Position numbers and translations under genes: made by a program. DNA of 64,000 nt from Escherichia phage arall: the sequence record MN850584.1; one strand, written 5' to 3'. Shown here piece by piece: positions 1,964 through 50,101 of this stretch. The stretch's first letter is position 1; each line of letters starts with the position of its first letter. Under the pieces are notes generated by a model. It was given only the letters and a program-made list of their open reading frames with translations. It did not search any database and was not told the DNA's origin.

Positions 1964-1964
1964 T

Positions 1965-5245: not shown

Positions 5246-5246
5246 T

Positions 5247-5459: not shown

Positions 5460-5460
5460 T

Positions 5461-5733: not shown

Positions 5734-5746
5734 ATCAGGAGTGAAA

Positions 5747-6676: not shown

Positions 6677-6685
6677 GGAGGCAAT

Positions 6686-6973: not shown

Positions 6974-6981
6974 GGAAAGCT

Positions 6982-7305
6982 ATGCAAAAAATAAACACTG
7001 GTTCTCGTCCTAAACAGAAGCAAACAAAAGCAAGGGTATCTTATGTTGACAACTCTTGTTATAATTTCAAAAATGTTAAAGAAGTTATCATTGATGAAAA
7101 AGAAGGTTTGATTCACATTTCATCTGAACGTTTGAAAGGTAGTGTTACTCTTCGTGAGAATGTATCTATACCTATGAAAGTTGTGGCTACACTCTGTGTT
7201 GATAAACCAGATGTTGTTAACTACTATGTGTTCCGTGATAGTTGTATTTCATTACATAATAAGATTTTTAAATCTTCGCACGTTAAAACAAAACACATTG
7301 TATAA
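6982..7305 (+). CDS. hypothetical protein
   Basis: 107 aa; followed by terminator hairpin. Confidence 0.55.
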   Translation: MQKINTGSRPKQKQTKARVSYVDNSCYNFKNVKEVIIDEKEGLIHISSERLKGSVTLRENVSIPMKVVATLCVDKPDVVNYYVFRDSCISLHNKIFKSSHVKTKHIV

Positions 7306-7310
7306 CACAT

Positions 7311-7334
7311 AAACCCGCTTCGGCGGGTTTTCTT
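7311..7334 (+). terminator. rho-independent terminator
   Basis: hairpin CCCGCTTCGGCGGG followed by TTTTCTTG. Confidence 0.6.
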
Positions 7335-7379
7335 GTATGTGTGTTTTTATTTGTCTTAGCATAAACAATAGGAGGTATT

Positions 7380-7601
7380 ATGTCTGTAGTTGTAGAAGGT
7401 AGTATTGGTTTCTTAGTAGATAACCCTCACCCTTTCGTGGTTAAGGTTCATATTCAAGAAAAGGTAAGCAACAATACGTGGTTGTGCTTGTTAGATAGTA
7501 AGATACACTCTTATACAGAGGTTTATCTTCACACTTGGCAAATTGGTACGATAACAGCAGAGGATGAATTGATAATTGAACTATATGAACGAGATCTGTA
7601 G
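7380..7601 (+). CDS. hypothetical protein
   Basis: 73 aa; RBS AGGAGGT upstream. Confidence 0.55.
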   Translation: MSVVVEGSIGFLVDNPHPFVVKVHIQEKVSNNTWLCLLDSKIHSYTEVYLHTWQIGTITAEDELIIELYERDL

Positions 7602-7679
7602 ATGACTTTATTAGAGAGTATCGTAGTGTTAATCATCTTTATCATTGTTGTCATAGGATATTTTACAGAAGACTAAAAT

Positions 7680-7716
7680 AAAGCCCCTAGAATCGCTTCT
7701 AGGGGCTTTTGTTTGC
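7680..7716. terminator. bidirectional terminator between convergent + and - blocks
   Basis: hairpin GCCCCTAGAATCGCTTCTAGGGGC flanked by A-run and T-run. Confidence 0.6.
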
Positions 7717-7776
7717 ATTAGATAGGGAAACGTATTACTAAAATAAAAAGTGCGTTAGAATGCGTTACAGGAGGTT

Positions 7777-8034
7777 TTAAGAATGCATAAAATCTTCTTC
7801 AGGGCAGGTTGAGAGATAAGAGATGCACGTTGGGACAACAACAACATTATCTTTAAGGTTTGCAACCAAGCCTTTTGTGATTCCAGCCACTGCCCCGTTA
7901 ATATCTGCTTGACGGATACCAAAACCTTGTTGTGCGGATAGATAACAAAATCCCTCACCTTTCTGTTGATTATTATTGAAGTAATAAACGTAGTGCATCA
8001 TAAAATGGTCTTTAACGATTTGTTCTGTGGTCAT
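7777..8034 (-). CDS. hypothetical protein (last gene of - block)
   Basis: 85 aa; RBS AGGAG upstream on - strand. Confidence 0.5.
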   Translation of the reverse strand: MTTEQIVKDHFMMHYVYYFNNNQQKGEGFCYLSAQQGFGIRQADINGAVAGITKGLVANLKDNVVVVPTCISYLSTCPEEDFMHS

Positions 8035-8047
8035 AATATTCTCCTAT

Positions 8048-8068
8048 AAGAAAAGGGGCTTTCGCCCC
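8048..8068 (-). terminator. rho-independent terminator
   Basis: GGGGCTTTCGCCCC hairpin with U-tract on - strand; same hairpin recurs at 19344 and 32435. Confidence 0.55.
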
Positions 8069-8077
8069 TTGGTCAAG

Positions 8078-8890
8078 TTACTTAGTCAAATGATCTTCTA
8101 TCATTTTTATGAAAGCAGGATTGCTAAAAGCATCTGCTGCCTTTTCTCTGTAAACAAAGACTCCTCTATCTTCGTAAAGAAGAGTTTCTTCGTAATTAAT
8201 TCCTGGGTTAACAACAATCATTTTTGTACCCATATTAAGTGCAGGGAATAATTCCCAATTAAAATTGATAACTTGGTTTGAACATCCTACTACAACAACC
8301 AAATCTTGCATGGTCAAAGTATCAAACAAGTGAGCCATATCTGCATACAAAGGTGCAGCCTCACCAAAAAATACAACATTAGGCTTCACCCAGTTATAAT
8401 CATCTATGTTTATACTATTGTAACCAATATCTACCAGTGTTTTGTAATCTCCAGGATGCATACGGTAAACTACTTCAGGAAGATACCCGTGCACGTGAAT
8501 AACAGAATCCCTGTCCACACCTGCTCGCTCTAGTAGATCATCAACGTTTGTTGTCAAGTTTACTACTTGGTTAGGATATTCCTTAAACCACTTTGCTATT
8601 TGAATATGTGCAGCATTAGGTTGTACATCTTTAAGCTCAACACGTCTTTTGTTATAAAATTCGTGTGTTTTGGCATACAAGTCCATACCGTTCTCGTCTA
8701 CACCACCGACCACTGGAAGATCTGGAGATGTTCTCACACGATAACCTGCTTGGAAAGCTCCAATATCGCAGACCTCTTCTAAGTCATATTCTTCCCATAA
8801 GGCACGACCACTATCTGTGTCTGTTCGGAACGTTCGAATCCCACTGTCTGCACTTAAACCTGCGCCACTAACAAAAATTACTCTTCGCAT
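8078..8890 (-). CDS. Sir2-family (sirtuin-like) NAD-binding protein, no zinc-ribbon
   Basis: 270 aa; GAGLSADSGIRTFR (GAGIS/GIPxFR), TTNVDDLLERAG (TQNID-like), VIHVHG (catalytic His), VVVGCS; no CxxC pairs. Confidence 0.8.
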   Translation of the reverse strand: MRRVIFVSGAGLSADSGIRTFRTDTDSGRALWEEYDLEEVCDIGAFQAGYRVRTSPDLPVVGGVDENGMDLYAKTHEFYNKRRVELKDVQPNAAHIQIAKWFKEYPNQVVNLTTNVDDLLERAGVDRDSVIHVHGYLPEVVYRMHPGDYKTLVDIGYNSINIDDYNWVKPNVVFFGEAAPLYADMAHLFDTLTMQDLVVVVGCSNQVINFNWELFPALNMGTKMIVVNPGINYEETLLYEDRGVFVYREKAADAFSNPAFIKMIEDHLTK

Positions 8891-8901
8891 TCAATATCCT
8901 C

Positions 8902-9447
8902 TTAGTAATCATCATCCCAAGAAGATGCGTCGTAACGCTCTTCCTCTTCGAAATCCCAATTAATTTCTACTCCAAAATCTAAAAACAATTTAACAATGTT
9001 TTCTGTAGAGTAGTATTTATCATAAGCATTAGCTAGTTCCCAATACTTGTCACTCAATTTTTTATATTTAGGATCATTATAGTCATAATCTACTTTATAA
9101 CCATAATCATACATCTCTTGTTTAGCTTTAAGCATAGCTTCTGGTGTAAGAAGATTAGGGAACGGACGATTTCTTTCTTTTAACTTAGAAGCAATCCAGT
9201 TTGCAACATTCGCCACTTCACCATCTCGATTATCACCTAAACAACTTGCATAATCTCCATCTTCGTAAGTGCCTAAATCCCCACAGACCACATGTACAAT
9301 ACTTGAATACGATCCACACGTTTCACAATCTGAAAAAGTGTCTACTGTTGTAATATCAATAGATAAAACTGGTAAAGCCATAGCTTCTTTCACACAAGCC
9401 TCCTCATATAATAACATATCATCAAAACCCATATATCCTCCACACAA
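8902..9447 (-). CDS. hypothetical protein, acidic C-terminus
   Basis: 181 aa ORF. Confidence 0.55.
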   Translation of the reverse strand: MCGGYMGFDDMLLYEEACVKEAMALPVLSIDITTVDTFSDCETCGSYSSIVHVVCGDLGTYEDGDYASCLGDNRDGEVANVANWIASKLKERNRPFPNLLTPEAMLKAKQEMYDYGYKVDYDYNDPKYKKLSDKYWELANAYDKYYSTENIVKLFLDFGVEINWDFEEEERYDASSWDDDY

Positions 9448-9449
9448 AT

Positions 9450-9473
9450 AAAGCCCCTGATTGGGGCTTTGGT
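9450..9473 (-). terminator. rho-independent terminator
   Basis: hairpin AGCCCCTGATTGGGGCT with U-tract on - strand. Confidence 0.5.
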
Positions 9474-9486
9474 TAAGTTTTATGGA

Positions 9487-10098
9487 TTATACCAGACTTT
9501 TAAGGTACTTGTCAAGGGCTTCTTGATCACCTTGACAAACATAGCAACGGAAGTCTTGAGCAGAAGGTTCTTTGTCCTCGTCCCAATCCCAATAAACAGT
9601 ACCTTTATAACGTGAACCTGGGAACTCGAAATATGCCACATGAGTAATATGGTGTGGGCCACCCCAAAATTCTGTAAAAGTAAATTGAGGATACGCTGCT
9701 TTAACTGTATTCTCAAACCAAGTTTTACGATCTAATGCTTCGTTTATAAAATAAGCATGGCGTTCCATTTCATCCCAATCTTTCCAAACGCATTTTTCAT
9801 CCAGAGAAAAAACAAAATCTTCACTGTTAAAATCGTCTGTATCTGATTCCAAAATATCATAATCATGTGCACTAGGTATCCACCATCCAGCTTCTAATAG
9901 TGCTTTTGCAGGTACAAAACCTTTTTCAGCATATTGATCAAATTCTTTTACTCTACGTACAGTGCAGTATTCATCTTCACCACCAATGTCCAGCAGACAA
10001 GCACCTTTGCGTCTTGCTGCAAGACCATGTGTATCAAAAACTACAACACTACCTTCACCATCTTCACGATCTACTTGATATGCAACTTTTTGAGTCAT
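9487..10098 (-). CDS. hypothetical protein
   Basis: 203 aa ORF. Confidence 0.55.
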   Translation of the reverse strand: MTQKVAYQVDREDGEGSVVVFDTHGLAARRKGACLLDIGGEDEYCTVRRVKEFDQYAEKGFVPAKALLEAGWWIPSAHDYDILESDTDDFNSEDFVFSLDEKCVWKDWDEMERHAYFINEALDRKTWFENTVKAAYPQFTFTEFWGGPHHITHVAYFEFPGSRYKGTVYWDWDEDKEPSAQDFRCYVCQGDQEALDKYLKSLV

Positions 10099-22558: not shown

Positions 22559-23548
22559 TTAAACTTTATTTTCCCACCACTCTTTGTTATCTACATACCA
22601 ATCAATGGTTGAATAAAGTTTTTCTTCAAATGTGCCTTTAGCTTTCCACCCTAATTCCTTTTCAATCTTATAAGGATTCACTTCGTATCTTAAATCATGT
22701 CCAGGTCTATCTGTAACCATTTCAATGAGGCTACAAGCATCTGTTTCAGATGGATACACCGCATCCATATAATCACAAATCATATAGATTACATCAATAT
22801 TAGTTCTAGGGTTTCTGCTCCCAATATTATATGTTTCTCCAGATTTGCCTTTAGTTACTACTAGGTGTAATGCTTCTGCGTGATCGTCAACGTATAACCA
22901 ATCTCTTACTTGAAGACCATTGCCATAAACAGGGATTGGTTTATGCATCAAGATATTTGTTATCGTTTTAGGTATTAGTTTTTCTGGATGATGATATGCT
23001 CCAAAATTATTTGAACAATTTGTTATAACTGTCGGAATACCATAAGTACGATGCCATGCTCTTACCAAATGATCGCTTGCAGCTTTAGATGCAGCATATG
23101 GACTACTTGGTTTATAAGGATTCTGTTCTGTAAACGGATAATCCCCTTCTTCCATATCACCATACACTTCATCTGTTGAAATATGATGGAACATTTTAAG
23201 ATTTGATTTATCTCCCATTAAACGAACAGCTTCTAGAAGATTAAATGTTCCAACAATATTTGAATTTATAAAAACACTCGGTGATGCTATTGAATTATCT
23301 ACGTGACTCTCTGCTGCAAGATGCATTATATAATCTGGATTAACATCTGCCACAATCTTAGCAGTTAACTGCGCATTTGTCAAGTCAACACGACAAAACT
23401 TTACATTAGGTGTTTCTGATAAATTTCTAGGGTCTGAAGCGTAACCCCATTTATCTATAACGTAAATATCATTCTTAGTATTTTTAGCCAGGAAACGAAC
23501 TACTGCACTTCCAATAAAGCCTAAACCACCTGTTACTAAGTATTTCAT
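22559..23548 (-). CDS. rmlB: dTDP-glucose 4,6-dehydratase
   Basis: 329 aa; TGGLGFIGS Rossmann, YAASKAASD (YxxxK). Confidence 0.9.
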
Positions 23549-41223: not shown

Positions 41224-41598
41224 TTAATAGTTAACACGTTTAATTTCAACACCATAGGATGCAATAAAATTTTCCTTAGCTAACATATATTTACCAGCAG
41301 CAGAAGGATTTGATGTATGAACATAGATAGTTTTAAGAGCATCCCATTCACCTGCGTACAACATACATTCTACGTCTAAGAACGCATGATATCCTTCTTG
41401 ATCTTCTCCAAGATCATTATCGAAGTGTATCTCTGAAATATTATTGAAATTATCTTCATCTGAAACAAAAGATGACCAATCCCCAAAAGATTTTAACCAA
41501 ATGGCATCCTCATAACCATAATCTTTAGGATCTCTTAAATCGTCTAACCAAAGAATTTTAGCCACTATCAACCCCCTTCCTGTTTCTCTTCTTTCCAA
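41224..41598 (-). CDS. hypothetical protein
   Basis: 124 aa ORF. Confidence 0.55.
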   Translation of the reverse strand: MERRETGRGLIVAKILWLDDLRDPKDYGYEDAIWLKSFGDWSSFVSDEDNFNNISEIHFDNDLGEDQEGYHAFLDVECMLYAGEWDALKTIYVHTSNPSAAGKYMLAKENFIASYGVEIKRVNY

Positions 41599-43191: not shown

Positions 43192-43532
43192 TATTCCCTC
43201 CTATACGGCTCTGTAACGAGCTAATGGCCTTTAAGATATGCAATCACCTTACCTCACAGTAAAACTCGTTACAATCGTTTTTAGGAGGTTTAGGTTGTAC
43301 TTAAAAATAATCTAAAAAGGTGTTGACAAACGCAAAAAAGTATGCTACCCTAACCCCCGAAAAACGCCGAGCGCAGCGAGGGGGTGTTATCTAATCTTGT
43401 GATACATGATCTAACAGACAACTGAGTAGTCTACATATAGCACTATGTTATGTCTATAATACTAACATACATGCTCTATACTAACAATAGATTCTTTATT
43501 AATTTTATTATTAATTAAATAATAAATATCTA

Positions 43533-43561
43533 TTGACTTTAGATCTATCTGTATGTAGAGT
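43533..43561 (+). promoter_or_regulatory. sigma70-like promoter (TTGACT-N17-TAGAGT)
   Basis: -35/-10 hexamers with 17-nt spacer downstream of AT-rich UP-like region. Confidence 0.45.
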
Positions 43562-43600
43562 AGAAAACATAAAGTCCGAACTCAACTAAGGAGATAAACA

Positions 43601-44494
43601 ATGAAAGTTAGTATTCTACATGGTGTTGACTGTTATGTTACTGATGTAGACGTTAAAGTCTTTACATTCTCTGGTGGAGAACAACATGTTCAACTAGATA
43701 CGAATCTATCAGGTTTCAATCATGCTACAGACAGAATCTTACTCTCTTTAGAAGTAAGATCTGCTAAAGACTTGATGACTTTGGTTATGACTAAGAATGC
43801 ATTGGACAATATGCTATATCATAAACCATATTGTGTTGATTTGCTCATGTTGTATGTGCCATATGCACGACAAGACAGAGTGTGTGAACCTGGGGAAGCA
43901 TTCGGAGTTAAAGCATTTGCTTCTATAATTAATTCATTAAATTTCTCACGTGTTATCGTTGCTGATCCACATAGTGATGTTACTCCAGCGGTGTTTGACA
44001 GACTCTGTGTAATACCTCAAGAAGAGATTGCTTACGAAACTTTAAAGTGGAAGTTACGTATGGAGAATTTTGCTCTTGTTAGTCCTGATGGTGGTGCTCT
44101 TAAGAAAATATTTAAATTATCTAAGAAAATGTCTTTAGATGTGTTCTGTGCAGAGAAGGTTAGAGATACTGCAACAGGTGCTATTGTTCGTACAGACATT
44201 TCTGTACAGGATTTCAATAAGCGTAACCTGATGATCGTAGATGATATCTGTGACGGCGGTAGAACTTTTATTGAATTGGCTAAAGTGCTACGTGCTCGTA
44301 ACGCAGGTAAGATTGAGTTATATGTTACACACGGTATCTTTTCTAAAGGTCTTAAAGAGTTAAGTGAGCACTTTGACTGCATTCATTCTCTTAATGTGTG
44401 GGAAGATAACATCCAAGAAGATTCCGGTGTTCTTGTTAAGAATCAGTCAGATTTGCAACAACAAATTGTATCTCCATACGTGTGGAATTTTTAA
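43601..44494 (+). CDS. PRPP-synthetase-like phosphoribosyl pyrophosphokinase (candidate ADP-ribose pyrophosphokinase, Adps-like)
   Basis: 297 aa; VPYARQDR, VSPDGGALKK, IVDDICDGGRT motifs; RBS AAGGAGA. Confidence 0.8.
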   Translation: MKVSILHGVDCYVTDVDVKVFTFSGGEQHVQLDTNLSGFNHATDRILLSLEVRSAKDLMTLVMTKNALDNMLYHKPYCVDLLMLYVPYARQDRVCEPGEAFGVKAFASIINSLNFSRVIVADPHSDVTPAVFDRLCVIPQEEIAYETLKWKLRMENFALVSPDGGALKKIFKLSKKMSLDVFCAEKVRDTATGAIVRTDISVQDFNKRNLMIVDDICDGGRTFIELAKVLRARNAGKIELYVTHGIFSKGLKELSEHFDCIHSLNVWEDNIQEDSGVLVKNQSDLQQQIVSPYVWNF

Positions 44495-44504
44495 ATAATA
44501 AGTG

Positions 44505-44533
44505 TTGACAATAGGGAGTATGCTTAGTAAGAT
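44505..44533 (+). promoter_or_regulatory. sigma70-like promoter (TTGACA-N17-TAAGAT)
   Basis: consensus -35 with 17-nt spacer. Confidence 0.45.
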
Positions 44534-44565
44534 ACTCCCACACTAACAAACAAGGAGACATAACT

Positions 44566-46299
44566 ATGAATATTTTTGCACCTTTTGCTACTGATTGGTA
44601 TAAACCTGGTCACAAGCAGATGTACAACCAAAATACAAAACTCATTTTCTCTAATTTAACTCCTCGTAATGATAAAAACTTTGCACACTATGCAGATCGT
44701 GAAGCACGTGGTGTAATTGTTTTAGGTATTCGTCGAGCAGTTACTGATGCTCTTGTAACTATGTGGGATAGCTTCTTTAAAATGTCTCGTAGTGCAGCAG
44801 TAAATAAGTTTTATCGTATGTCTAAAAATGCATTAGGTGCTTCTTCTCCTTCTGCTGAATGTTGGGGAGAATTGCACGATTTAGGTTATCTTCCGCTGGA
44901 AGTTCGATCTCTGCCAGAAGGTGTTTTGTGTCCTATTGGTGTTCCTGTGTTTACTGTGCATAATACTTTAGAAAAATTCTTTTGGTTAACTAACTATGTG
45001 GAAACACTATTGTCAGATGAAACTTGGAAGACAATGACTAATGCTACAGCAGCTTTTCAGTATAAGCGTATTGCTATGGCATATGCGATGGCAACGTGTG
45101 ATAATATTGATCACGTTAACTTCCAGTGTCATGATTTTAGCCTACGTGGTTTAAGTAATATTGAAGATGGTTATAAGAGTGGTATCGCTCATTTGGCATC
45201 GTTCACAGGCACAGATAATATTCTGGCTATTGAAACTGTGCATGATTATTATGGTATTGATTATGATCAGTTTGTTGCAGGTTCTATTCCGGCAACAGAA
45301 CATTCAGTAGCAACGACTAACATTGGAGCTATTGTTGAAGATCTGAAGAAACATTTCCCACATCTTAAAGATGATGTTGATGGGCTTCGTTATGTAGCAG
45401 AGAAAGAGTTTCTTCGCCGCTATATTGAAGAAATTGTTCCAGAAGGTTTTTGTTCATATGTAGCAGATTCTTATGATTACTGGGCTGTCTTGACTCGCAT
45501 TCTGGTAGAATTGAAAGAGTCCATTATGTCACGAAATGGTCGTCTTGTTATTCGTCCAGATTCAGGAGATCCGGTTAAAGTTGTTGCAGGATACAATGTT
45601 GAATCTTTTGCTAACTATGAAGACCTTTTAAATAATGGTATTGCTACAGCCACTGAAGTAGTTCATTTGGCTGATGTTAATAAGTATTACAATGTTCTTC
45701 AGGATTGCAGTGTTGCTGATTGTATTGATGAAACTTATGAGATTCCTTATTGTGAAGCAGTAGGTTCTATTCAAATCCTTTGGGAAGTGTTTGGTGGTAC
45801 TATCAACCGAAAAGGCTACAAGGTTCTTGATCAGCACATCGGTATGATTTATGGTGATTCTATTACTGTTGAACGAGAACACGAGATCTTACGCCGACTG
45901 AAGAAGAAAGGTTTTGCAGCTTCCAATATTGTATTTGGTGTTGGTAGTTATACTTATCAGTTCAATACACGAGATACTTTTGGTTTTGCTGTTAAAGCAA
46001 CAGGTAGTATCATCGGTGAACACGAAATTTTGGTAAGTAAGGAGCCTAAAACTGATCCTGGTAAACGCTCTGCAAAAGGTTTTATTAAGGTTGTTAAGGA
46101 TACAAATGGTAAACTTTCTCTTGTGGATAATCTTTCTTTTAAAGATATTCAAGATGAAGACAATGAGTTAAAAGTTATCTTCAGGGATGGTACGGTTATT
46201 ACACCACAAGTAGAAGGACGTGATGAAACATTTACTGATATCCGCAACCGTGTTGATGTAGAGGTTCTTCGTACTATGGGAACCATCCAGGTTGACTAA
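44566..46299 (+). CDS. nicotinamide phosphoribosyltransferase-like (NadV/NAMPT family; candidate Namat)
   Basis: 577 aa; N-terminal FATDWYKPGHKQMY and overall NAMPT-like organisation; RBS AAGGAGA. Confidence 0.8.
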   Translation: MNIFAPFATDWYKPGHKQMYNQNTKLIFSNLTPRNDKNFAHYADREARGVIVLGIRRAVTDALVTMWDSFFKMSRSAAVNKFYRMSKNALGASSPSAECWGELHDLGYLPLEVRSLPEGVLCPIGVPVFTVHNTLEKFFWLTNYVETLLSDETWKTMTNATAAFQYKRIAMAYAMATCDNIDHVNFQCHDFSLRGLSNIEDGYKSGIAHLASFTGTDNILAIETVHDYYGIDYDQFVAGSIPATEHSVATTNIGAIVEDLKKHFPHLKDDVDGLRYVAEKEFLRRYIEEIVPEGFCSYVADSYDYWAVLTRILVELKESIMSRNGRLVIRPDSGDPVKVVAGYNVESFANYEDLLNNGIATATEVVHLADVNKYYNVLQDCSVADCIDETYEIPYCEAVGSIQILWEVFGGTINRKGYKVLDQHIGMIYGDSITVEREHEILRRLKKKGFAASNIVFGVGSYTYQFNTRDTFGFAVKATGSIIGEHEILVSKEPKTDPGKRSAKGFIKVVKDTNGKLSLVDNLSFKDIQDEDNELKVIFRDGTVITPQVEGRDETFTDIRNRVDVEVLRTMGTIQVD

Positions 46300-46370
46300 A
46301 TAAAAACTTCGTGATAAGATTAAGGTAAGGAGAGCCTGCAACTGCCCTGGATGGGCTTCACGAAGGATTT

Positions 46371-46592
46371 ATGAAACAACATAATTTTTATTTTCGTTGC
46401 CGAGCCTGTAACAGACACTTGACTAATCATTCCCGTAGAGACAGGAATGGTAATATTCAAGAGTCGGATCTATGCTCGATTTGTACAAGTTTGGCATTCG
46501 ACGACAGTCCCGAAAGGGTTTATCAACATCAAAGTGTAACTGATCTTCTTCTAAATTACACAGCACCAGAGGAGGAATTAGATTTCACATAA
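46371..46592 (+). CDS. zinc-ribbon protein
   Basis: 73 aa; CRACN...CSIC. Confidence 0.5.
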   Translation: MKQHNFYFRCRACNRHLTNHSRRDRNGNIQESDLCSICTSLAFDDSPERVYQHQSVTDLLLNYTAPEEELDFT

Positions 46593-46605: not shown

Positions 46606-46716
46606 ATGTCTACAGAAATTATTTTTGGCTTATCTGTTTTTATTGCTATTGTATCTTTTGTATGCGGTTATACATTAGGGTACAGATCAAGAAAAAATAT
46701 TGTAAAAACTAGTTGA
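46606..46716 (+). CDS. small membrane protein (36 aa)
   Basis: RBS AAGGAAACAG; hydrophobic IIFGLSVFIAIVSFVCGY; below track cut-off. Confidence 0.3.
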   Translation: MSTEIIFGLSVFIAIVSFVCGYTLGYRSRKNIVKTS

Positions 46717-46742
46717 CAACATAGCTAGTTATTTGCTAAGAT
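46713..46742 (+). promoter_or_regulatory. sigma70-like promoter (TTGACA-N18-TAAGAT)
   Basis: hexamers upstream of gene at 46772. Confidence 0.4.
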
Positions 46743-47045: not shown

Positions 47046-47121
47046 GGTTCCATAGCTCACTGACGAGAGCGCACACCTCATAAGTGTCGAGGGCAGGGAT
47101 TGTAACCCTGGGGAACCACCA
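47046..47121 (+). tRNA. tRNA-Met/Ile2 (anticodon CAT), non-canonical T-loop ATTGTAA
   Basis: hand-folded cloverleaf: acceptor GGTTCCA/GGGAACC (one A.G), D-arm GCTC-ACTGACGA-GAGC, anticodon loop CTCATAA, T-stem CAGGG/CCCTG, CCA encoded. Confidence 0.55.
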
Positions 47122-47152
47122 TTTAAAAGGAGGTGCTATGCATCTCCTATAT

Positions 47153-47238
47153 GCAAGTGTGGTGGAATTGGTGATACACATTGTGCTTAAAACGCAACGC
47201 TTAAATGCTTGAGGGTTCGAATCCCTCCACTTGCACCA
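47153..47238 (+). tRNA. tRNA-Leu (anticodon TAA)
   Basis: acceptor GCAAGTG/CACTTGC, anticodon loop CTTAAAA, long variable arm, T-loop TTCGAAT, CCA encoded. Confidence 0.75.
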
Positions 47239-47240
47239 AC

Positions 47241-47346
47241 GCCTAGTAGGGTATTTGGTAATTCCGAGGCCATCAAAGCCTGAAAAATATGTTAGACCGC
47301 TTTGTCTAACTAAATACGAAATATGGTTCGATTCCATAACTAGGCT
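47241..47346 (+). other. atypical over-long tRNA-like gene (106 nt)
   Basis: perfect 7-bp acceptor GCCTAGT/ACTAGGC and canonical T-arm TATGG-TTCGATT-CCATA, but about 30 nt too much between them, including a 7-bp hairpin GTTAGAC-CGCTTT-GTCTAAC. Confidence 0.35.
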
Positions 47347-47379
47347 TCAATTTAAATAGTAATTTTAGTAAAAAATATC

Positions 47380-47408
47380 TTGACATTTACTTAGTTTTTT
47401 GTTATAGT
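47380..47408 (+). promoter_or_regulatory. sigma70 consensus promoter (TTGACA-N17-TATAGT)
   Basis: near-consensus hexamers ending 12 nt upstream of tRNA-like gene at 47420. Confidence 0.55.
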
Positions 47409-47419
47409 CGTTATGAAAA

Positions 47420-47501
47420 CGGGGTGTATCTCACCTGACTTCTAATCAGGCGTTAACCGAGTAATTGGAGTATGCAGGTTCGAATCCTGTCACCCCGGCC
47501 A
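47420..47501 (+). other. atypical tRNA-like gene with anticodon hairpin TCT (Arg-type) and no recognisable D-arm
   Basis: perfect acceptor CGGGGTG/CACCCCG + CCA, T-arm GCAGG-TTCGAAT-CCTGT, anticodon arm CCTGA-CTTCTAA-TCAGG; only 7 nt (TATCTCA) where D-arm should be; 23-nt variable region with GNRA-capped stem. Confidence 0.4.
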
Positions 47502-47519
47502 AAAAGTTTTAAAAACTAC

Positions 47520-47549
47520 TTGACAAGCAAGATAGTTTTATGTTAGATT
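47520..47549 (+). promoter_or_regulatory. sigma70-like promoter (TTGACA-N17/18-TTAGAT)
   Basis: hexamers upstream of tRNA-Ser. Confidence 0.4.
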
Positions 47550-47564
47550 TAAAGTATGATAACT

Positions 47565-47654
47565 GGAAGGTAGGGCGCAGCGGTGCGCAACCAGGTTTGA
47601 ACCCTGGCCCATTGTAGCGATACGGTGATGGTTCGACTCCATTATCTTCCTCCA
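47565..47654 (+). tRNA. tRNA-Ser (anticodon TGA)
   Basis: acceptor GGAAGGT/ATCTTCC, anticodon arm CCAGG-TTTGAAC-CCTGG, long variable arm, T-loop TTCGACT, CCA. Confidence 0.7.
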
Positions 47655-47660
47655 AATTCA

Positions 47661-47825
47661 ATGAGTGATTTTATGAATTATAAAACTATTGGACAGGTTG
47701 TTACCGGAGTTAAGATTGTAAATAATAAAGTTGTTTATGAGTATTCTAATCTTCAACAATCTGAAGATGGTAAGAATATTCGTATGGTAAAAGCAGAACA
47801 AAAAGATTCCGGTTGTTTTGAATAA
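47661..47825 (+). CDS. small hypothetical protein inside tRNA cluster
   Basis: ORF track 47625..47825 trimmed to first ATG after tRNA-Ser 3' end; no clear RBS. Confidence 0.3.
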   Translation: MSDFMNYKTIGQVVTGVKIVNNKVVYEYSNLQQSEDGKNIRMVKAEQKDSGCFE

Positions 47826-47833
47826 TTAAGAAC

Positions 47834-47919
47834 GGTAGATTGGTGAAATGGTAGCCACAACAGTTTGCTAAACTGTCGTCGGAAACGGCGTGTAGGTTCA
47901 AGTCCTACATCTACCGCCA
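47834..47919 (+). tRNA. tRNA-Ser (anticodon GCT)
   Basis: acceptor GGTAGAT/ATCTACC, anticodon loop TTGCTAA, long variable arm, T-loop TTCAAGT, CCA. Confidence 0.7.
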
Positions 47920-48054
47920 AGTTATCTTTAATGTAGCTTGTAATCTTACTTTAGCAGAGTAAATCTTCGGCAAGTGGCGGTAACCACTTTACCGATACCC
48001 CAATACTTCATAGCTAAGTGCCGCAAACACTGGCTATTTTAAAGATAATTTTAT

Positions 48055-48129
48055 ACATCGTTAGCCAAGCGGTAAGGCACTTGACTTTTAATCAAGGGAG
48101 CGAAGGTTCGAATCCTTCACGATGTACCA
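48055..48129 (+). tRNA. tRNA-Lys (anticodon TTT)
   Basis: acceptor ACATCGT/ACGATGT, D-arm GCC-AAGCGGTAA-GGC, anticodon loop CTTTTAA, T-loop TTCGAAT, CCA. Confidence 0.75.
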
Positions 48130-48134
48130 AACAC

Positions 48135-48221
48135 GTAGGTATCGCATAGCGGCAATTGCTGGAGACTGTAAATCTCCTGCCCTTCTGGGCTTCGTTGGTT
48201 CGAGTCCAACTACCTGCACCA
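48135..48221 (+). tRNA. tRNA-Tyr (anticodon GTA)
   Basis: acceptor GTAGGTA/TACCTGC (U2.G71), anticodon arm GGAGA-CTGTAAA-TCTCC, long variable arm, T-loop TTCGAGT, CCA. Confidence 0.7.
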
Positions 48222-48228
48222 AATTAAA

Positions 48229-48313
48229 GATGGATTGGCCTAGTGGTTGGGCGACGGACTGTTAATCCGTGAACGAAAGTTCTAGCAAGGTTCAAATCCT
48301 TGATCCATCGCCA
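48229..48313 (+). tRNA. class-II (long variable arm) tRNA with anticodon GTT (Asn codons) in a Ser/Tyr-like body
   Basis: acceptor GATGGAT/ATCCATC, 3-bp D-stem GCC/GGC, anticodon arm ACGGA-CTGTTAA-TCCGT, 15-nt variable arm GAACGAAAGTTCTAG, T-loop TTCAAAT, CCA. Confidence 0.5.
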
Positions 48314-48320
48314 GAATTAT

Positions 48321-48397
48321 GGACTTGTAGAGTTAAGGTAAAACCCCAGTCGCCAAGAGGCTTCTGGAATTGCAGGTATCGAATCCTGTCGAGTCCA
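48321..48397 (+). pseudogene. degenerate tRNA-like element (possible tRNA pseudogene)
   Basis: acceptor-like GGACTTG/CGAGTCC and T-arm-like GCAGG-TATCGAAT-CCTGT (8-nt loop); no D-arm or anticodon arm found. Confidence 0.3.
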
Positions 48398-48403
48398 AGT
48401 ATT

Positions 48404-48478
48404 GCTCCTATCGTATAACGGCTATTACGGTTGCCTTGTAAGCAACTTATCAGGGTTCGAGTCCTTGTGGGAGCACCA
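48404..48478 (+). tRNA. tRNA-Thr (anticodon TGT)
   Basis: acceptor GCTCCTA/TGGGAGC, anticodon arm GTTGC-CTTGTAA-GCAAC, T-loop TTCGAGT, CCA. Confidence 0.75.
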
Positions 48479-48495
48479 ATTTTAACTCTAAAGGA

Positions 48496-48825
48496 GTGTA
48501 TGTGACAGAAAAAGAGTTAGAGAAATATTTTAATATCAATGTTTTCGATGGTTTTGATGATATTGAAGATGTTGAAAGATATTATGAAGTAGAGTTAGAT
48601 AAGGATAACATTGTAATTCTTTCTGCCACTTATGATTGTGCATATTATGAAGGTGAATCTCACGTTTATTTTTATGATATGAAAACATCTTTGTTTTATG
48701 AAGTACACGCATATCATTGTTCTTGTTATGGTTTAGAAGGTCAGTGGGAACCTGAAGAAATAGGTGATTTGGATTTTACTATTGCATATCTAAACAGACG
48801 TGGTGCATCTACTATTTTAAAATAA
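48496..48825 (+). CDS. hypothetical acidic protein inside tRNA cluster
   Basis: 109 aa; GTG start at RBS AAGGAG (alternative GTG 48502). Confidence 0.5.
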   Translation: MYVTEKELEKYFNINVFDGFDDIEDVERYYEVELDKDNIVILSATYDCAYYEGESHVYFYDMKTSLFYEVHAYHCSCYGLEGQWEPEEIGDLDFTIAYLNRRGASTILK

Positions 48826-48839
48826 ATATCAAAAGCCTC

Positions 48840-48869
48840 TTGACAAAGTGGCTAATAATATGTTAGAGT
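48840..48869 (+). promoter_or_regulatory. sigma70-like promoter (TTGACA-N18-TAGAGT)
   Basis: hexamers upstream of tRNA-Gly. Confidence 0.4.
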
Positions 48870-48880
48870 AATATTGTTAA

Positions 48881-48955
48881 GCGGGTATAGTGTTAATTGT
48901 AGCATATGAGGTTTCCACCCTCCAGGTGCAGGTTCAAGTCCTGTTACTCGCTCCA
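48881..48955 (+). tRNA. tRNA-Gly (anticodon TCC)
   Basis: acceptor GCGGGTA/TACTCGC, anticodon loop TTTCCAC, T-loop TTCAAGT, CCA. Confidence 0.65.
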
Positions 48956-49302
48956 AGATTATTTAAATGGAATCGCTAGAGAAAATTTCTCTTTTCGCTC
49001 ATGGTTTTCTCCTTCAAACTCTAGCGGTTCTTTTTAAGTGATTTTTAGTTTATTGGAGATTCACTGCCTTAGTATGAGCTAAAATCGAGGAGCCATCGAA
49101 CTGTCTGATTAATGATTTGCGAATCATTATAGTTTTAAGACCCCGGCAGTTTTATGGTGTACCTCTTGAATGTGAATGATGACGGGTTTATGGTTATCCT
49201 GGTCGTTAAATATCCAAAAACCTATGTTCCCCTTGATGGCTTGCGCAGGCAATGCCAATAAGTCCTGCATTTTCATTTAAAAGAGAATTTATAATGGAAA
49301 AA

Positions 49303-49380
49303 GATGAACTTAAGTATGCTAAGCCTCTGGCTTCTGCTGCACGAAAAGCAGTTCGTCACTTTGTGGTAACACTGAAGTAA
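49303..49380 (+). CDS. very small ORF (25 aa) in structured noncoding stretch
   Basis: ATG 9 nt after AAGAGAA; MEKDELKYAKPLASAARKAVRHFVVTLK; speculative. Confidence 0.2.
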   Translation, partial: DELKYAKPLASAARKAVRHFVVTLK

Positions 49381-49385
49381 TTTAT

Positions 49386-49460
49386 TGGAGATTAGCCTAG
49401 TGGGAAGGCAACGGCCTTTGAAGTCGTGATGACTAGGTTCGATTCCTAGATCTCCAGCCA
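49386..49460 (+). tRNA. tRNA-Gln (anticodon TTG)
   Basis: acceptor TGGAGAT/ATCTCCA (U1-A72), anticodon arm ACGGC-CTTTGAA-GTCGT, T-loop TTCGATT, CCA. Confidence 0.75.
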
Positions 49461-49467
49461 AGATTTA

Positions 49468-49543
49468 CAGTGCGTAGCGCAGTTGGTAGCGTGGGAGCTT
49501 TGGATGCTTCGGGTCGCAGGTTCGAGTCCTGCCGCACTGACCA
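49468..49543 (+). tRNA. tRNA-Pro (anticodon TGG)
   Basis: acceptor CAGTGCG/CGCACTG (C1-G72), anticodon loop TTTGGAT, T-loop TTCGAGT, CCA. Confidence 0.75.
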
Positions 49544-49548
49544 AATTT

Positions 49549-49623
49549 GCAGAGATAGCTGAGACGGATTAGTGCTACCCTGAAAAGGTAGAAAGGATGG
49601 ATCGTTACCATCTCTCTGCACCA
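49549..49623 (+). tRNA. tRNA-Phe (anticodon GAA), non-canonical T-loop ATCGTTA
   Basis: acceptor GCAGAGA/TCTCTGC, anticodon arm CTACC-CTGAAAA-GGTAG, T-stem GATGG/CCATC, CCA. Confidence 0.6.
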
Positions 49624-49700
49624 AATAACACCATCCAAGGAGTAGACTTGGTTAACTGTCAATAGCACATTGAGGCTTCTTACAGTGGTGTACTTATTAT

Positions 49701-49785
49701 GGCTAAGTGGTGGAATGGTATACACGATACGCTTAGAACGTATTGCCCCAAGGGATTGTGAGTTCGAGTCTCACCTTAGCTACCA
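49701..49785 (+). tRNA. tRNA-Leu (anticodon TAG)
   Basis: acceptor GGCTAAG/CTTAGCT, anticodon arm ATACG-CTTAGAA-CGTAT, long variable arm, T-loop TTCGAGT, CCA. Confidence 0.7.
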
Positions 49786-49800
49786 AATTATTACAGATTG

Positions 49801-49879
49801 TGCGGGATAGAGGAGTCTGGTCGTCCTCGCCAGTTTCATATGCTGGAGATCATCGGTTCAAATCCGATTCCCGCCTCCA
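49801..49879 (+). tRNA. tRNA-Met/Ile2 (anticodon CAT)
   Basis: acceptor TGCGGGA/TCCCGCC (1-72 mismatch), D-arm GAGG/CCTC, anticodon arm CCAGT-TTCATAT-GCTGG, T-loop TTCAAAT, CCA. Confidence 0.6.
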
Positions 49880-49956
49880 ATAAATACCTCCCTTCTGGTG
49901 TAATGATTAAATTGCATTGACACTTCAAGGAACTCATAGCCGGGTAGATTTAAAAG

Positions 49957-50020
49957 AGTATGGTACTCAATATGGCTCCAAACCATAGATCAAGGGGTTC
50001 GATTCCTCACCTTGCTGCCA
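49957..50020 (+). other. short (64 nt) tRNA-like gene with anticodon hairpin CCA (Trp-type), no D-arm
   Basis: anticodon arm TATGG-CTCCAAA-CCATA, T-arm AGGGG-TTCGATT-CCTCA, 3' CCTTGCT-G-CCA pairs with AGTATGG (6/7); only 7 nt (TACTCAA) in D-arm position. Confidence 0.35.
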
Positions 50021-50025
50021 ATTAT

Positions 50026-50101
50026 TGTGGTATCGTACAGATGGTTAGTACACTCGACCGATAATCGAGAAACAACGGTTCGACTCCGTTTACCACGACC
50101 A
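50026..50101 (+). tRNA. tRNA-Ile (anticodon GAT)
   Basis: acceptor TGTGGTA/TACCACG, D-arm GTAC/GTAC, anticodon arm CTCGA-CCGATAA-TCGAG (C33), T-loop TTCGACT, CCA. Confidence 0.65.

What the first reader, a model, noticed from the sequence alone, without database searches (positions are those of the whole stretch)
43601..46299. Adjacent Prs-like and NAMPT-like genes: candidate NARP1-type NAD+ reconstitution (anti-defense) pair
A 297-aa PRPP-synthetase-fold protein (YARQDR, VSPDGG, IVDDICDGGRT) is followed by a 577-aa NAMPT/NadV-fold protein, each with its own sigma70-like promoter. This two-gene arrangement matches the reported phage NAD+ reconstitution pathway 1 (ADP-ribose pyrophosphokinase plus nicotinamide ADPR transferase), which rebuilds NAD+ from the ADPR and nicotinamide left by NAD-depleting defenses (Thoeris, DSR, SIR2-HerA, SEFIR). 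Sequence alone cannot separate this from plain PRPP plus NAMPT salvage.
Basis: partly seen in the sequence, partly recalled or inferred. Interest (0 to 1): 0.8.

Follow-up and report, generated by a model that had tools for sequence, protein, structure and literature searches.

The report
Phage NAD+ rebuilding gene pair (NARP1)

Summary
Intact ORFs lie at 43601-44494 (297 aa, Prs fold) and 44566-46299 (577 aa, NAMPT fold), 71 bp apart, each behind a promoter-like site and an AAGGAG ribosome-binding site. The window is a phi92-like coliphage (Justusliebigvirus). Its proteins are 100% and 99.3% identical to those of BASEL phage Bas60.

The NARP1 interpretation is supported.
- Protein 2 carries the published Namat adenine-clamp signature (GSYTYQFNTRD). 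KVP40 and RB43 NadV, Xanthomonas Nampt and H. ducreyi NadV all lack it.
- Protein 2's catalytic residues are conserved, and its model best matches the solved SPbetaL1 Namat.
- Protein 1 scores like reference Adps (119 bits against 82-139) and unlike true Prs (423 bits) on the curated Prs model.
- Protein 1 keeps the catalytic Lys and shares an Adps-only motif.
- No NMN adenylyltransferase, Macro or RyR partner sits beside the pair, so this is the minimal two-gene form.

It is not new. The phi92 and Bas60 orthologues appear in Supplementary Table S1 of Osterman et al. No enzymology or deletion test exists for this lineage, which is only 31-40% identical to validated pairs.

One side lead: relatives encode an unlinked Adpp-like Macro protein, and the window holds a CobB-like sirtuin.

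The parts
43533..43561 (+). Promoter-like site upstream of the Adps gene (TTGACT-17 nt-TAGAGT, 9 of 12)
   Evidence: Consensus scan; sequence. This is a consensus match only. It lies in the 410-bp divergent intergenic region where gene orientation switches from the - strand to the + strand.
43588..43593 (+). Shine-Dalgarno sequence AAGGAG, 7 nt before the ATG of the Adps gene
   Evidence: Read directly from the sequence.
43601..44494 (+). adps: ADP-ribose pyrophosphokinase (ADPR-PP synthetase) candidate, 297 aa. Carries catalytic Lys186, the K-V-R-D-T-A-T-G-A-I motif, DPHS at aa 122 and DDICDGGRT at aa 214.
   Evidence: ORF. Scores 118.8 bits on TIGR01251, against 423 for E. coli Prs and 82-139 for reference Adps. 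Scores 205 bits on an HMM built from four reference Adps, against 107 for E. coli Prs. Alignment. AF2 model with a Prs fold. 100% identical to Bas60 QXV83989. The phi92 orthologue is in Osterman Table S1.
44505..44533 (+). Promoter-like site upstream of the Namat gene (TTGACA-17 nt-TAAGAT, 10 of 12); member of a recurring TTGACW-N16-18-TAAGAT family
   Evidence: 4 matches in the window against 0.16 expected, with none of 100 shuffles reaching 4.
44514..44539 (+). Inverted repeat GGGAGTAT(10 nt)ATACTCCC overlapping the spacer and -10 of that promoter. It could be an operator or an inter-genic RNA hairpin; its function is unknown.
   Evidence: Sequence. RNA fold of the 71-nt spacer gives -15.3 kcal/mol, z = -2.8, with 1 of 200 shuffles folding as well.
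44552..44557 (+). Shine-Dalgarno sequence AAGGAG, 8 nt before the ATG of the Namat gene
   Evidence: Read directly from the sequence.
44566..46299 (+). namat: nicotinamide ADPR-transferase candidate, 577 aa ('long form'). Catalytic residues D10, Y12, F191, R194, D217, H246, R330 and D332.
   Evidence: ORF. Best PDB sequence match is SPbetaL1 Namat 9W5X/9W5W (E 6e-118), against 3e-48 for human NAMPT. Scores 566 bits on an HMM built from four reference Namat, against 225-260 for NARP2-type NadV. AF2 model has TM 0.93 to 9W5X. The phi92 and Bas60 orthologues are labelled 'Adps-associated' in Osterman's Namat table.
44668..44688 (+). Codons for the clamp loop (SCL), aa 35-41: N-D-K-N-F-A-H
   Evidence: Alignment. 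K37 and H41 are invariant and F39 is at least 90% conserved among 32 long-form homologues. The published rule asks for Arg, Lys or Tyr at the third residue.
45322..45411 (+). Insertion 1 relative to SPbetaL1 Namat (about aa 253-282), predicted helical; present in shorter form in Bas63 Namat
   Evidence: Alignment. AF2 secondary structure and pLDDT of 85-95.
45592..45762 (+). Insertion 2 relative to SPbetaL1 Namat (about aa 343-399), predicted as a small beta-rich subdomain; shared with Bas63 Namat and Ackermannviridae homologues
   Evidence: Alignment. AF2 gives strands at 345-348, 365-368, 373-377 and 387-393, with pLDDT about 70-94. The phage Ag3 sequence has a similar insertion.
45943..45975 (+). 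Codons for the clamp helix (SCH) signature, aa 460-470: G-S-Y-T-Y-Q-F-N-T-R-D
   Evidence: [quoted passage not shown] Compared.

Best explanation
The two genes are the minimal two-gene form of NAD+ reconstitution pathway 1 (NARP1) of a phi92-like coliphage.

Inferred mechanism, by homology to the SPbetaL1, Bas63 and DyoEdafos enzymes: an NAD-depleting defence (SIR2-HerA/Nezha, DSR1/2, type I Thoeris, SEFIR, Kongming, SPARSA-type effectors) cleaves NAD+ into ADP-ribose and nicotinamide. Protein 1 (Adps, a Prs-fold pyrophosphokinase, catalytic Lys186) then transfers pyrophosphate from ATP to the ribose C1'' of ADPR, giving ADPR-PP. Protein 2 (Namat, a NAMPT-fold transferase) replaces that pyrophosphate with nicotinamide and regenerates NAD+ directly, with no NMN intermediate and no host NadR or PncC. 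Namat's preference for ADPR-PP over PRPP is expected to come from an adenine-binding clamp. The clamp helix is G460-S-Y462-T-Y-Q-F466-N-T-R-D470, and the clamp loop of the partner protomer contributes K37 and F39.

Shown here: gene integrity, adjacency, folds, conserved catalytic and clamp residues, and class-level scores. Inferred: substrates, products and the anti-defence phenotype. Both genes appear to be driven by host-type promoters at the head of a rightward block that runs on into the phage's tRNA cluster.
For: (1) Published cataloguing. phi92 FR775895_00103 differs from window protein 1 by one residue and is in Osterman et al. Table S1 with 'Namat within 10 genes = Yes'. FR775895_00104 and MZ501100_00240 are labelled 'Adps-associated' Namat. 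The window proteins are 100% and 99.3% identical to Bas60's.

(2) Namat clamp helix. The window has GSYTYQFNTRD. SPbetaL1 has GSFTYQYNTRD, Bas63 GSYTYQYMTRD, DyoEdafos GSFTYQHNTRD and ICP1 GSYTYQYVTRD. In contrast KVP40 NadV has GGGLLQQLDRD, RB43 GGGLLQEVTRD, Xcc Nampt GGALLQKVDRD and HdNadV GAQTYQRNTRD. Of 120 closest homologues, 119 keep Phe or Tyr at position 3, and 116 of them Phe or Tyr at position 7 (Met in three).

(3) All Namat catalytic residues named in PMC12774641 are conserved.

(4) Fold. The best PDB match is Namat 9W5X (E 2e-50, TM 0.93).

(5) Adps class. TIGR01251 gives the window protein 118.8 bits, reference Adps 82-139 and E. coli Prs 423. The window protein is far below every Prs equivalog cut-off. 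On the reference-Adps HMM it scores 205 against 107 for Prs. The catalytic Lys is conserved. The Adps-only motif K-x-R-[DN]-x-x-T-G-x-I and the DPHS motif are shared by all five Adps aligned (the window's included) and absent from E. coli Prs; DDICDGG is shared by four of the five (SPbetaL1 has DDLSSFGG) and is also absent from Prs.

(6) Context. The genes are 71 bp apart. No NMNAT is annotated anywhere in the 98-99%-identical genome of phage alia, and its one 'nucleotidyltransferase' is PolyA_pol-like. This argues against a NARP2 or NMN route.

(7) Conservation. The 3-kb locus is conserved at 95% identity or more in 55 phi92-like records.
Against: No enzyme assay or deletion phenotype exists for any phi92-like pair in the searched literature. 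Identity to validated proteins is only 31-40% for Adps and 35-40% for Namat.

A genuine NMN-forming NadV (H. ducreyi, 9KE8) is almost as similar overall (35% identity, TM 0.92). The call therefore rests on a handful of clamp residues plus gene context.

The clamp loop deviates from the published pattern. The fourth residue is Asn rather than an aromatic, with Phe one position later, and the loop is longer than in SPbetaL1.

Protein 1 keeps the Prs-like YARQDR motif and just passes the generic Prs subfamily cut-off (118.8 against 113), although Bas63 Adps passes it too.

No Adps structure exists, so its ADPR specificity determinants are unknown.
Confidence: 0.87

Rival explanations
1. Plain salvage. 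Protein 1 is a phage PRPP synthetase and protein 2 is an ordinary NadV/NAMPT. Together they boost NMN, which host NadR or PncC/NadD converts to NAD+, to support phage metabolism (ribonucleotide reduction and similar) rather than to counter defence.
For: Both proteins hit the generic Prs and NadV models above cut-off (TIGR01251 118.8 against 113; NF006629 460 against 405). Protein 1 keeps YARQDR. SPbetaL1 Namat retains NMN-forming activity with PRPP in vitro. HdNadV, a true NadV, is 35% identical. All public annotations use these names.
Against: Reference Adps and Namat hit the same generic models equally well, so those hits do not discriminate. Protein 1 scores 3.5-fold below E. coli Prs and within the Adps range. 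Protein 2 has the adenine clamp that NadV enzymes lack. In the published phylogeny, Prs-like genes next to Namat-like genes form the phage-specific Adps clade, with 97% linkage. The homologous Bas63 pair works without host pncC or nadR, and SPbetaL1 Adps made no detectable product in the PRPP-synthetase control assay.
Confidence: 0.06
2. The chemistry is that of NARP1, but the main role is housekeeping for the phage itself. The pair would recycle ADPR-type products and nicotinamide released by the phage's own NAD-consuming enzymes, such as the CobB-like sirtuin at 8078-8890, possibly through the unlinked Macro-domain protein. Countering host defences would be secondary.
For: The same genome encodes a sirtuin with a GAGxS...GIRTFR motif and a conserved catalytic-His region (Pfam SIR2 1.6e-22; best PDB match E. 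coli CobB 1S5P). Relatives encode a Poa1p-like Macro protein 39% identical to the operon-encoded Macro of the Vibrio phage River4 NARP1-AP locus. From established knowledge, Macro domains convert O-acetyl-ADPR and ADPR-1''-phosphate to ADPR.
Against: The phage sirtuin occurs in 983 phage records, including T5-like phages, and the Macro family in about 2,970 records, including T4-like phages without NARP1. There is therefore no specific co-inheritance. The three genes are 35-80 kb apart. In Bas63, ADPR-PP appeared only when a defence system was present.
Confidence: 0.05
3. A decayed or non-functional remnant of NARP1, retained by linkage.
For: None found, beyond the absence of direct functional data.
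Against: Both ORFs are intact. All catalytic and clamp-helix residues are conserved. The locus is 95% or more identical and full-length in 55 related phage genomes. Homologues at 50-75% identity keep the same invariant residues.
Confidence: 0.02

Closest known systems
NARP1 of coliphage Bas63 (JohannRWettstein) genes 79-80 (Osterman et al., bioRxiv 10.1101/2024.02.11.579819)
   Same: Same two-gene order (Adps then Namat) with a short spacer. Both have a long-form Namat (593 against 577 aa) sharing both insertions, the same clamp helix and a Lys at the third clamp-loop residue. Same host species. The reference pair was validated in vivo by deletion on SIR2-HerA, independently of host pncC and nadR.
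   Different: Only 35% (Adps) and 39.5% (Namat) identical. The phage lineage differs (Felixounavirus against Justusliebigvirus). The Bas63 clamp loop reads SDKWF, with Trp at the stacking position, where the window reads NDKNF. The window pair has separate promoter-like sites and an inter-genic hairpin. The window pair itself is untested.
NARP1 of Bacillus phage SPbetaL1 (biochemistry in Osterman et al.; Namat crystal structures 9W5X and 9W5W, PMC12774641)
   Same: Catalytic residues match: K162 to K186 in Adps; R306 to R330, D215 to D217 and F189 to F191 in Namat. The clamp helix is GSFTYQYNTRD against GSYTYQFNTRD. It is the best structural match to the window model (TM 0.93).
   Different: SPbetaL1 Namat is the short form (491 aa), without the roughly 30-aa and 57-aa insertions. 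Its clamp loop uses Arg40 directly, and its genes overlap. Identity is 35% and 38.5%.
Extended forms: NARP1-AP (Adps-Adpp-Namat, Vibrio phage Gary; 10.64898/2026.01.28.702374) and NARP1 + RyDEP (mycobacteriophage DyoEdafos; PMC13232231)
   Same: The core Adps and Namat are homologous. River4, with the same Adps-Macro-Namat layout described for Gary, and DyoEdafos both align with the window proteins.
   Different: The window locus has no Macro or RyR gene between or beside the pair. A Macro-domain protein exists in close relatives, but about 80 kb away and outside this window.
NARP2 (Nampt/NadV + Nmnat, for example vibriophage KVP40) and cellular NadV/NAMPT and Prs
   Same: Same folds and same catalytic cores. 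The same curated HMM (NF006629) captures both Namat and NadV.
   Different: KVP40 and RB43 NadV are 27-33% identical and lack the clamp aromatics. No Nmnat partner is found in the phi92-like genome. E. coli Prs is 28% identical and scores 423 against 119 bits on TIGR01251.

Membership tests
NARP1 (Adps + Namat) | A Prs-fold protein of the phage Adps clade rather than a housekeeping Prs | tested here: met
   TIGR01251: window 118.8 bits, five reference or operon-verified Adps 82-139, E. coli Prs 422.7. All Prs equivalog cut-offs are missed by a wide margin. The reference-Adps HMM gives 205 bits against 107 for Prs. The phi92 orthologue is listed in Osterman Table S1. No independent full phylogeny with diverse cellular Prs was built here.
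NARP1 (Adps + Namat) | Adps catalytic lysine (SPbetaL1 K162, equivalent to B. subtilis Prs K197) | tested here: met
   Lys186 aligns with SPbetaL1 K162 and E. coli K194. It is invariant in 33 homologues.
NARP1 (Adps + Namat) | Adps and Namat genes adjacent (within 10 genes in the published definition) | tested here: met
   Same strand, 71-bp spacer.
NARP1 (Adps + Namat) | Namat catalytic core (F189, R192, D215, catalytic His, R306 and D308 in SPbetaL1 numbering) | tested here: met
   F191, R194, D217, H246, R330 and D332 are conserved and invariant in 32 homologues.
NARP1 (Adps + Namat) | [quoted passage not shown] | tested here: met
   G460-S-Y-T-Y-Q-F-N-T-R-D470. The signature is absent from KVP40 and RB43 NadV, Xcc Nampt and HdNadV.
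NARP1 (Adps + Namat) | Clamp loop: third residue Arg, Lys or Tyr, with that residue or the fourth stacking on adenine | tested here: inconclusive
   The third residue is Lys37, which fits the rule; HdNadV has Glu there. The fourth residue is Asn38. The conserved aromatic is Phe39, one position later, and the loop is longer than in SPbetaL1. No ligand-bound model could be made.
NARP1 (Adps + Namat) | Enzymology: ADPR + ATP gives ADPR-PP; ADPR-PP + nicotinamide gives NAD+, with preference over PRPP | not testable with these tools
   Shown only for the SPbetaL1, DyoEdafos and Paenibacillus homologues.
NARP1 (Adps + Namat) | Rescue of the phage from NAD-depleting defence systems | not testable with these tools
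   Shown for Bas63, FADO, ICP1 (NrsAB) and cloned operons. No phi92-like data were found.
NARP1-AP (with Adpp phosphatase) | Macro-domain ADPR-1''-phosphate phosphatase encoded in the NARP1 operon | tested here: not met
   No Macro domain in the ten flanking ORFs and no tblastn match anywhere in the window. An unlinked homologue exists in relatives: alia gp066, 39% identical to River4 gp177.
NARP1 + RyDEP | RyR-domain glycosidase within the locus | tested here: not met
   No RyR-domain hit among the flanking ORFs.
NARP2 (Nampt + Nmnat) | NMN adenylyltransferase partner, and a Nampt without the adenine clamp | tested here: not met
   No Nmnat is annotated in the 98-99%-identical alia genome, and its one 'nucleotidyltransferase' is PolyA_pol-like. 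The window protein has the clamp.
Housekeeping Prs (class I ribose-phosphate diphosphokinase) | Scores above the curated equivalog cut-offs and has the DxHA and DTGGT-type ribose-5-phosphate loops | tested here: not met
   The best curated model below the generic TIGR01251 gives 99.6 bits against a cut-off of 297 (NF002320, a subfamily model); the best equivalog gives 98 against 296. The protein has DPHS and DDICDGGRT where E. coli Prs has DLHA and DDMIDTGGT.

The most novel reading that the evidence does not exclude
phi92-like phages may run an extended NARP1 'in trans'. An unlinked, N-terminally extended Poa1p-like Macro protein (alia gp066, outside this window) would convert ADPR-1''-phosphate (the aRES product) or O-acyl-ADPR (the product of the phage's own CobB-like sirtuin at window 8078-8890) into ADPR. 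That ADPR would feed the Adps-Namat pair. This would broaden the range of NAD-cleaving chemistries the phage can reverse without an operon-linked Adpp. Separately, the two ordered insertions of the long-form Namat, for which no structure is solved, could add a function absent from the crystallised short form.
Probability: 0.12. Interest if true: 0.45.

Novelty: already known. Interest (0 to 1): 0.17.

Why it matters
NARP1 lets phages undo NAD+ depletion, the effector logic shared by many defence systems (Thoeris I, DSR, SIR2-HerA, SEFIR and others). Knowing which therapeutic or model phages carry it helps predict host range.

For this window the practical points are modest.
- phi92-like phages, including BASEL Bas60, carry the minimal two-gene form. 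They should resist ADPR-producing NADases but, by the published logic, not aRES.
- Public annotation ('ribose-phosphate pyrophosphokinase', 'nicotinate/nicotinamide phosphoribosyltransferase') and the curated NadV HMM cannot tell Namat from Nampt. The clamp motif can.
- The long-form Namat and every Adps still lack solved structures.

Tried and rejected
(1) A structured RNA in the 410-bp upstream intergenic region. There was a sub-threshold Rfam hit (GA-cis, 21.3 against 34.7 bits, E 0.36) and a 20-nt inverted repeat. Neither strand folds better than shuffles (z -0.5 and -0.1), so I treated it as chance.

(2) Operon-linked accessory genes (Macro/Adpp, RyR/RyDEP). None is present among the ten flanking ORFs. 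The flanking small ORFs have no counterparts in the Bas63, SPbetaL1, DyoEdafos, ICP1 or River4 loci.

(3) A phage Nmnat that would indicate NARP2. The only 'nucleotidyltransferase' in a close relative is a weak PolyA_pol-head match.

(4) A specific sirtuin-NARP1 linkage. The sirtuin is widespread, including in T5-like phages, so this was demoted to a low-probability aside.

(5) Curated HMMs as a way to discriminate Namat from Nampt. NF006629 scores all of them at 443-594 bits, so it is not useful for this.

(6) Literature search for experiments on Bas60 or phi92 NARP1. Bas60 was used only for CBASS/Acb5 and DarTG/NADAR work.

(7) I did not build a full Prs/Adps phylogeny, because only one cellular Prs (E. 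coli) was retrievable. I relied on profile-score calibration and on the published tree.
Full report
**What is there**

The quoted motifs (YARQDR, VSPDGG, IVDDICDGGRT) are present.

Pfam, NCBIfam and PHROGs place protein 1 in the ribose-phosphate pyrophosphokinase (Prs) superfamily and protein 2 in the NAMPT/NadV family. AlphaFold2 models built on 32-33 homologues are confident (pLDDT 92.9 and 89.9). Each superposes over its full length, on Prs and on Namat/NAMPT structures respectively.

**Which genome it is**

The 3-kb locus is 98-99% identical to phi92-like coliphages (genus Justusliebigvirus: alia, phi92, PaulScherrer = BASEL Bas60, and others) and is complete in 55 records. The whole window maps to alia 93,550-147,009 and continues at 1-9,660. 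Protein 1 is 100% identical and protein 2 is 99.3% identical to the Bas60 proteins.

**What the literature already says**

NARP1 was defined by Osterman et al. (bioRxiv 10.1101/2024.02.11.579819).
- Deleting genes 79-80 of coliphage Bas63 sensitises it to SIR2-HerA, independently of host pncC and nadR.
- ADPR-PP accumulates only when the defence system is present.
- Purified SPbetaL1 enzymes convert ADPR + ATP to ADPR-PP (Adps), and ADPR-PP + nicotinamide to NAD+ (Namat).

That paper's Supplementary Table S1 lists the phi92 protein FR775895_00103, which differs from window protein 1 by one residue, with 'Namat within 10 genes: Yes'. It also lists FR775895_00104 and MZ501100_00240 (Bas60) as 'Adps-associated' Namat. 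The window's pair is therefore already catalogued, though only computationally. I found no enzymology or deletion experiment on any phi92-like phage. Bas60 has been used only in CBASS/Acb5 and DarTG/NADAR studies.

**Independent test of protein 2 (Namat or Nampt?)**

The 2026 structural study (PMC12774641; PDB 9W5X and 9W5W) showed that Namat keeps the NAMPT catalytic core. It gains ADPR-PP specificity through an adenine 'selectivity clamp'. The clamp has a helix with the signature GS-X-Phi-X-Phi-X-Phi-TRD, aromatic at positions 3 and 7. It also has a variable loop whose third residue is Arg, Lys or Tyr.

Clamp helix compared:

| Protein | Class | Clamp-helix sequence |
|---|---|---|
| Window | candidate | GSYTYQFNTRD (aa 460-470) |
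| SPbetaL1 | Namat | GSFTYQYNTRD |
| Bas63 | Namat | GSYTYQYMTRD |
| DyoEdafos | Namat | GSFTYQHNTRD |
| ICP1 | Namat | GSYTYQYVTRD |
| KVP40 NadV | NARP2-type NadV | GGGLLQQLDRD |
| RB43 NadV | phage NadV (no Adps nearby) | GGGLLQEVTRD |
| Xanthomonas Nampt | cellular | GGALLQKVDRD |
| H. ducreyi NadV | cellular | GAQTYQRNTRD |

Of the 120 closest database homologues, 119 keep the pattern with Phe or Tyr at position 3. All catalytic residues are conserved and invariant across 32 long-form homologues: D10, Y12, F191, R194, D217, H246, R330 and D332.

Other comparisons:
- An HMM built from four reference Namats scores the window protein at 566 bits, against 225-260 for KVP40 and RB43 NadV.
- The closest solved structure to the model is SPbetaL1 Namat (TM 0.93, E 2e-50).

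Two caveats apply.
- A genuine NMN-forming NadV (HdNadV, 9KE8) is nearly as close overall (35% identity, TM 0.92), so overall similarity is not decisive.
- The clamp loop reads N-D-K37-N-F39. Lys at the third position fits the rule (HdNadV has Glu there), but the fourth residue is Asn, and the conserved aromatic, Phe39, lies one position later.

I score the loop feature as inconclusive.

**Independent test of protein 1 (Adps or Prs?)**

No Adps structure is in the PDB. The best sequence and fold matches are Prs enzymes, at E about 1e-15 and 18-24% identity.

Calibration on the curated Prs model TIGR01251 is informative:

| Protein | TIGR01251 score (bits) |
|---|---|
| E. coli Prs | 422.7 |
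| Adps of Bas63 | 138.5 |
| Adps of SPbetaL1 | 106 |
| Adps of DyoEdafos | 81.7 |
| Adps of ICP1 | 98 |
| Adps of River4 | 98 |
| Window protein 1 | 118.8 |

The window protein also misses every Prs equivalog cut-off by a wide margin. An HMM built from four reference Adps gives it 205 bits, against 107 for E. coli Prs.

The catalytic Lys (SPbetaL1 K162) is Lys186. My alignment also shows Adps-only features that the window protein shares and E. coli Prs lacks: K-x-R-[DN]-x-x-T-G-x-I after the catalytic Lys, DPHS where Prs has DLHA, and DDICDGG where Prs has DDMIDTGG (SPbetaL1 Adps, with DDLSSFGG, is the one Adps that departs from this last motif).

**Context**

- Ten flanking ORFs contain no Macro (Adpp) or RyR (RyDEP) domain, so this is the minimal two-gene form.
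- The 98-99%-identical alia genome has no annotated NMN adenylyltransferase. Its single 'nucleotidyltransferase' is a weak PolyA_pol-head match. This argues against a NARP2 or NMN route.
- Each gene is preceded by a promoter-like site and AAGGAG.
- The Namat-proximal site belongs to a TTGACW-N16-18-TAAGAT family found 4 times against 0.16 expected. Three of the four sit at 44505, 46292 and 46713.
- An 8-bp inverted repeat (44514-44539) overlaps that promoter's -10 region.
- No terminator-like site follows Namat. Two small ORFs and a 15-tRNA cluster lie downstream.

**Most likely mechanism**

By homology, not shown for this lineage: host NADase effectors produce ADPR and nicotinamide. Adps pyrophosphorylates ADPR using ATP. 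Namat then couples ADPR-PP to nicotinamide and restores NAD+ directly. I put this at about 0.87.

The rivals are weaker:
- Ordinary Prs + NadV salvage, about 0.06. It is disfavoured by the clamp, the Adps-range scores and the absence of Nmnat.
- The same chemistry used mainly to recycle products of the phage's own NAD-consuming enzymes, about 0.05. It is disfavoured because the sirtuin and the Macro protein are widespread and unlinked.
- A decayed, non-functional remnant, about 0.02.

**Differences from the characterised examples**

- Identity is 31-40% for Adps and 35-40% for Namat.
- Namat is the long form. It has a helical insertion (about aa 253-282) and a beta-rich insertion (about aa 343-399), both predicted ordered. 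Both are present in the in-vivo-validated Bas63 protein (the first in shorter form) and absent from the crystallised SPbetaL1 enzyme.
- The clamp loop is a variant.
- The two genes have separate promoter-like sites.

**Side observations**

- The window also encodes a CobB-like sirtuin at 8078-8890, on the minus strand.
- Close relatives encode, outside this window, a Macro-domain protein (alia gp066). Its C-terminal domain is 39% identical to the Macro protein that sits between Adps and Namat in Vibrio phage River4, a NARP1-AP layout.
- This allows a speculative in-trans extension of NARP1. However, both families are widespread in phages that lack NARP1.

**Verdict**

The finding is already known, as a catalogued member of a published anti-defence pathway. 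Interest is low, at about 0.17. What remains of value is the untested status of this lineage, the systematic mis-annotation of these genes, and the small side lead about the unlinked Macro protein.

Noticed in passing
window 8078-8890 (- strand): A phage-encoded CobB-like sirtuin of 270 aa. Pfam SIR2 gives 1.6e-22 and the best PDB match is E. coli CobB 1S5P; the GAGxS...GIRTFR motif and the catalytic-His region are conserved. So an NAD-consuming enzyme sits in the same genome as the NAD-rebuilding pair. Homologues occur in 983 phage records, including T5-like and KVP40-like phages.
   Followed up: partly
Outside the window: L013:5853-6569 (- strand) = alia NC_052655 55853-56569 (gp066): A 238-aa 'phosphatase' with a C-terminal Macro domain (PF01661, 2.1e-7). 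It is 39% identical (blastp E 1e-33) to River4 gp177, which lies between Adps and Namat in a NARP1-AP-type operon. In phi92-like phages it is about 80 kb from the NARP1 pair and carries an extra N-terminal region of about 87 aa. The same Macro family is in about 2,970 phage records.
   Followed up: partly
window 41224-41598 (- strand), with neighbours at about 38.8-40.7 kb: A 124-aa protein with a cREC_REC 'cyclic-phosphate processing receiver' domain (PF20274, 3.9e-13). Going by the Bas60 annotation, it sits just beside a polynucleotide kinase / RNA ligase / phosphoesterase cluster, which is probably a tRNA/RNA-repair module.
   Followed up: no
window 23355-23383 (-), 44505-44533 (+), 46292-46320 (+), 46713-46742 (+): A recurring promoter-like motif, TTGACW-N16-18-TAAGAT, found 4 times against 0.16 expected by chance. 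Three copies precede the Namat gene and the two small ORFs after it, suggesting a family of host-type (probably early) promoters.
   Followed up: partly
window 44514-44539 (+ strand): A perfect 8-bp inverted repeat, GGGAGTAT(10 nt)ATACTCCC, lies in the 71-bp spacer between the two genes and overlaps the -10 region of the Namat promoter-like site. The spacer folds at -15.3 kcal/mol (z = -2.8). It could be an operator or an RNA hairpin.
   Followed up: partly
window 47046-50101 (+ strand): A cluster of 15 tRNA genes (Met, Leu, Ser x2, Lys, Tyr, Asn, Thr, Gly, Gln, Pro, Phe, Leu, Met, Ile) starts about 750 bp downstream of Namat. No terminator-like site lies in between.
   Followed up: no
window 46371-46592 (+ strand): A 73-aa ORF with two CxxC pairs (weak RecR Cys4 zinc-finger match, E 0.004). 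It has its own TAAGAT-type promoter-like site, which overlaps the end of the Namat gene. It is annotated in Bas60 but not in alia and has no counterpart in other NARP1 loci.
   Followed up: partly
Protein level: The curated NadV model NF006629 scores Namat and true NadV alike (443-594 bits). All public records call these genes nicotinate/nicotinamide phosphoribosyltransferase and ribose-phosphate pyrophosphokinase. This looks like systematic mis-annotation across roughly 1,600-2,000 phage records.
   Followed up: partly
Proteins P0061, P0062, P0087 and P0103: Adps-like homologues at 43-46% identity, encoded by the bacteria Geminocystis spp. (two on 3.9-4.2 Mb contigs) and Thorsellia anophelis. 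This is consistent with the reported existence of bacterial NARP1 homologues. Their gene neighbourhoods were not examined.
   Followed up: no
window 43280-43395 (+ strand): A sub-threshold Rfam match to the GA-cis sRNA motif (21.3 against 34.7 bits, E 0.36) in the divergent intergenic region. Folding energy is no better than shuffles on either strand, so it is probably chance.
   Followed up: yes
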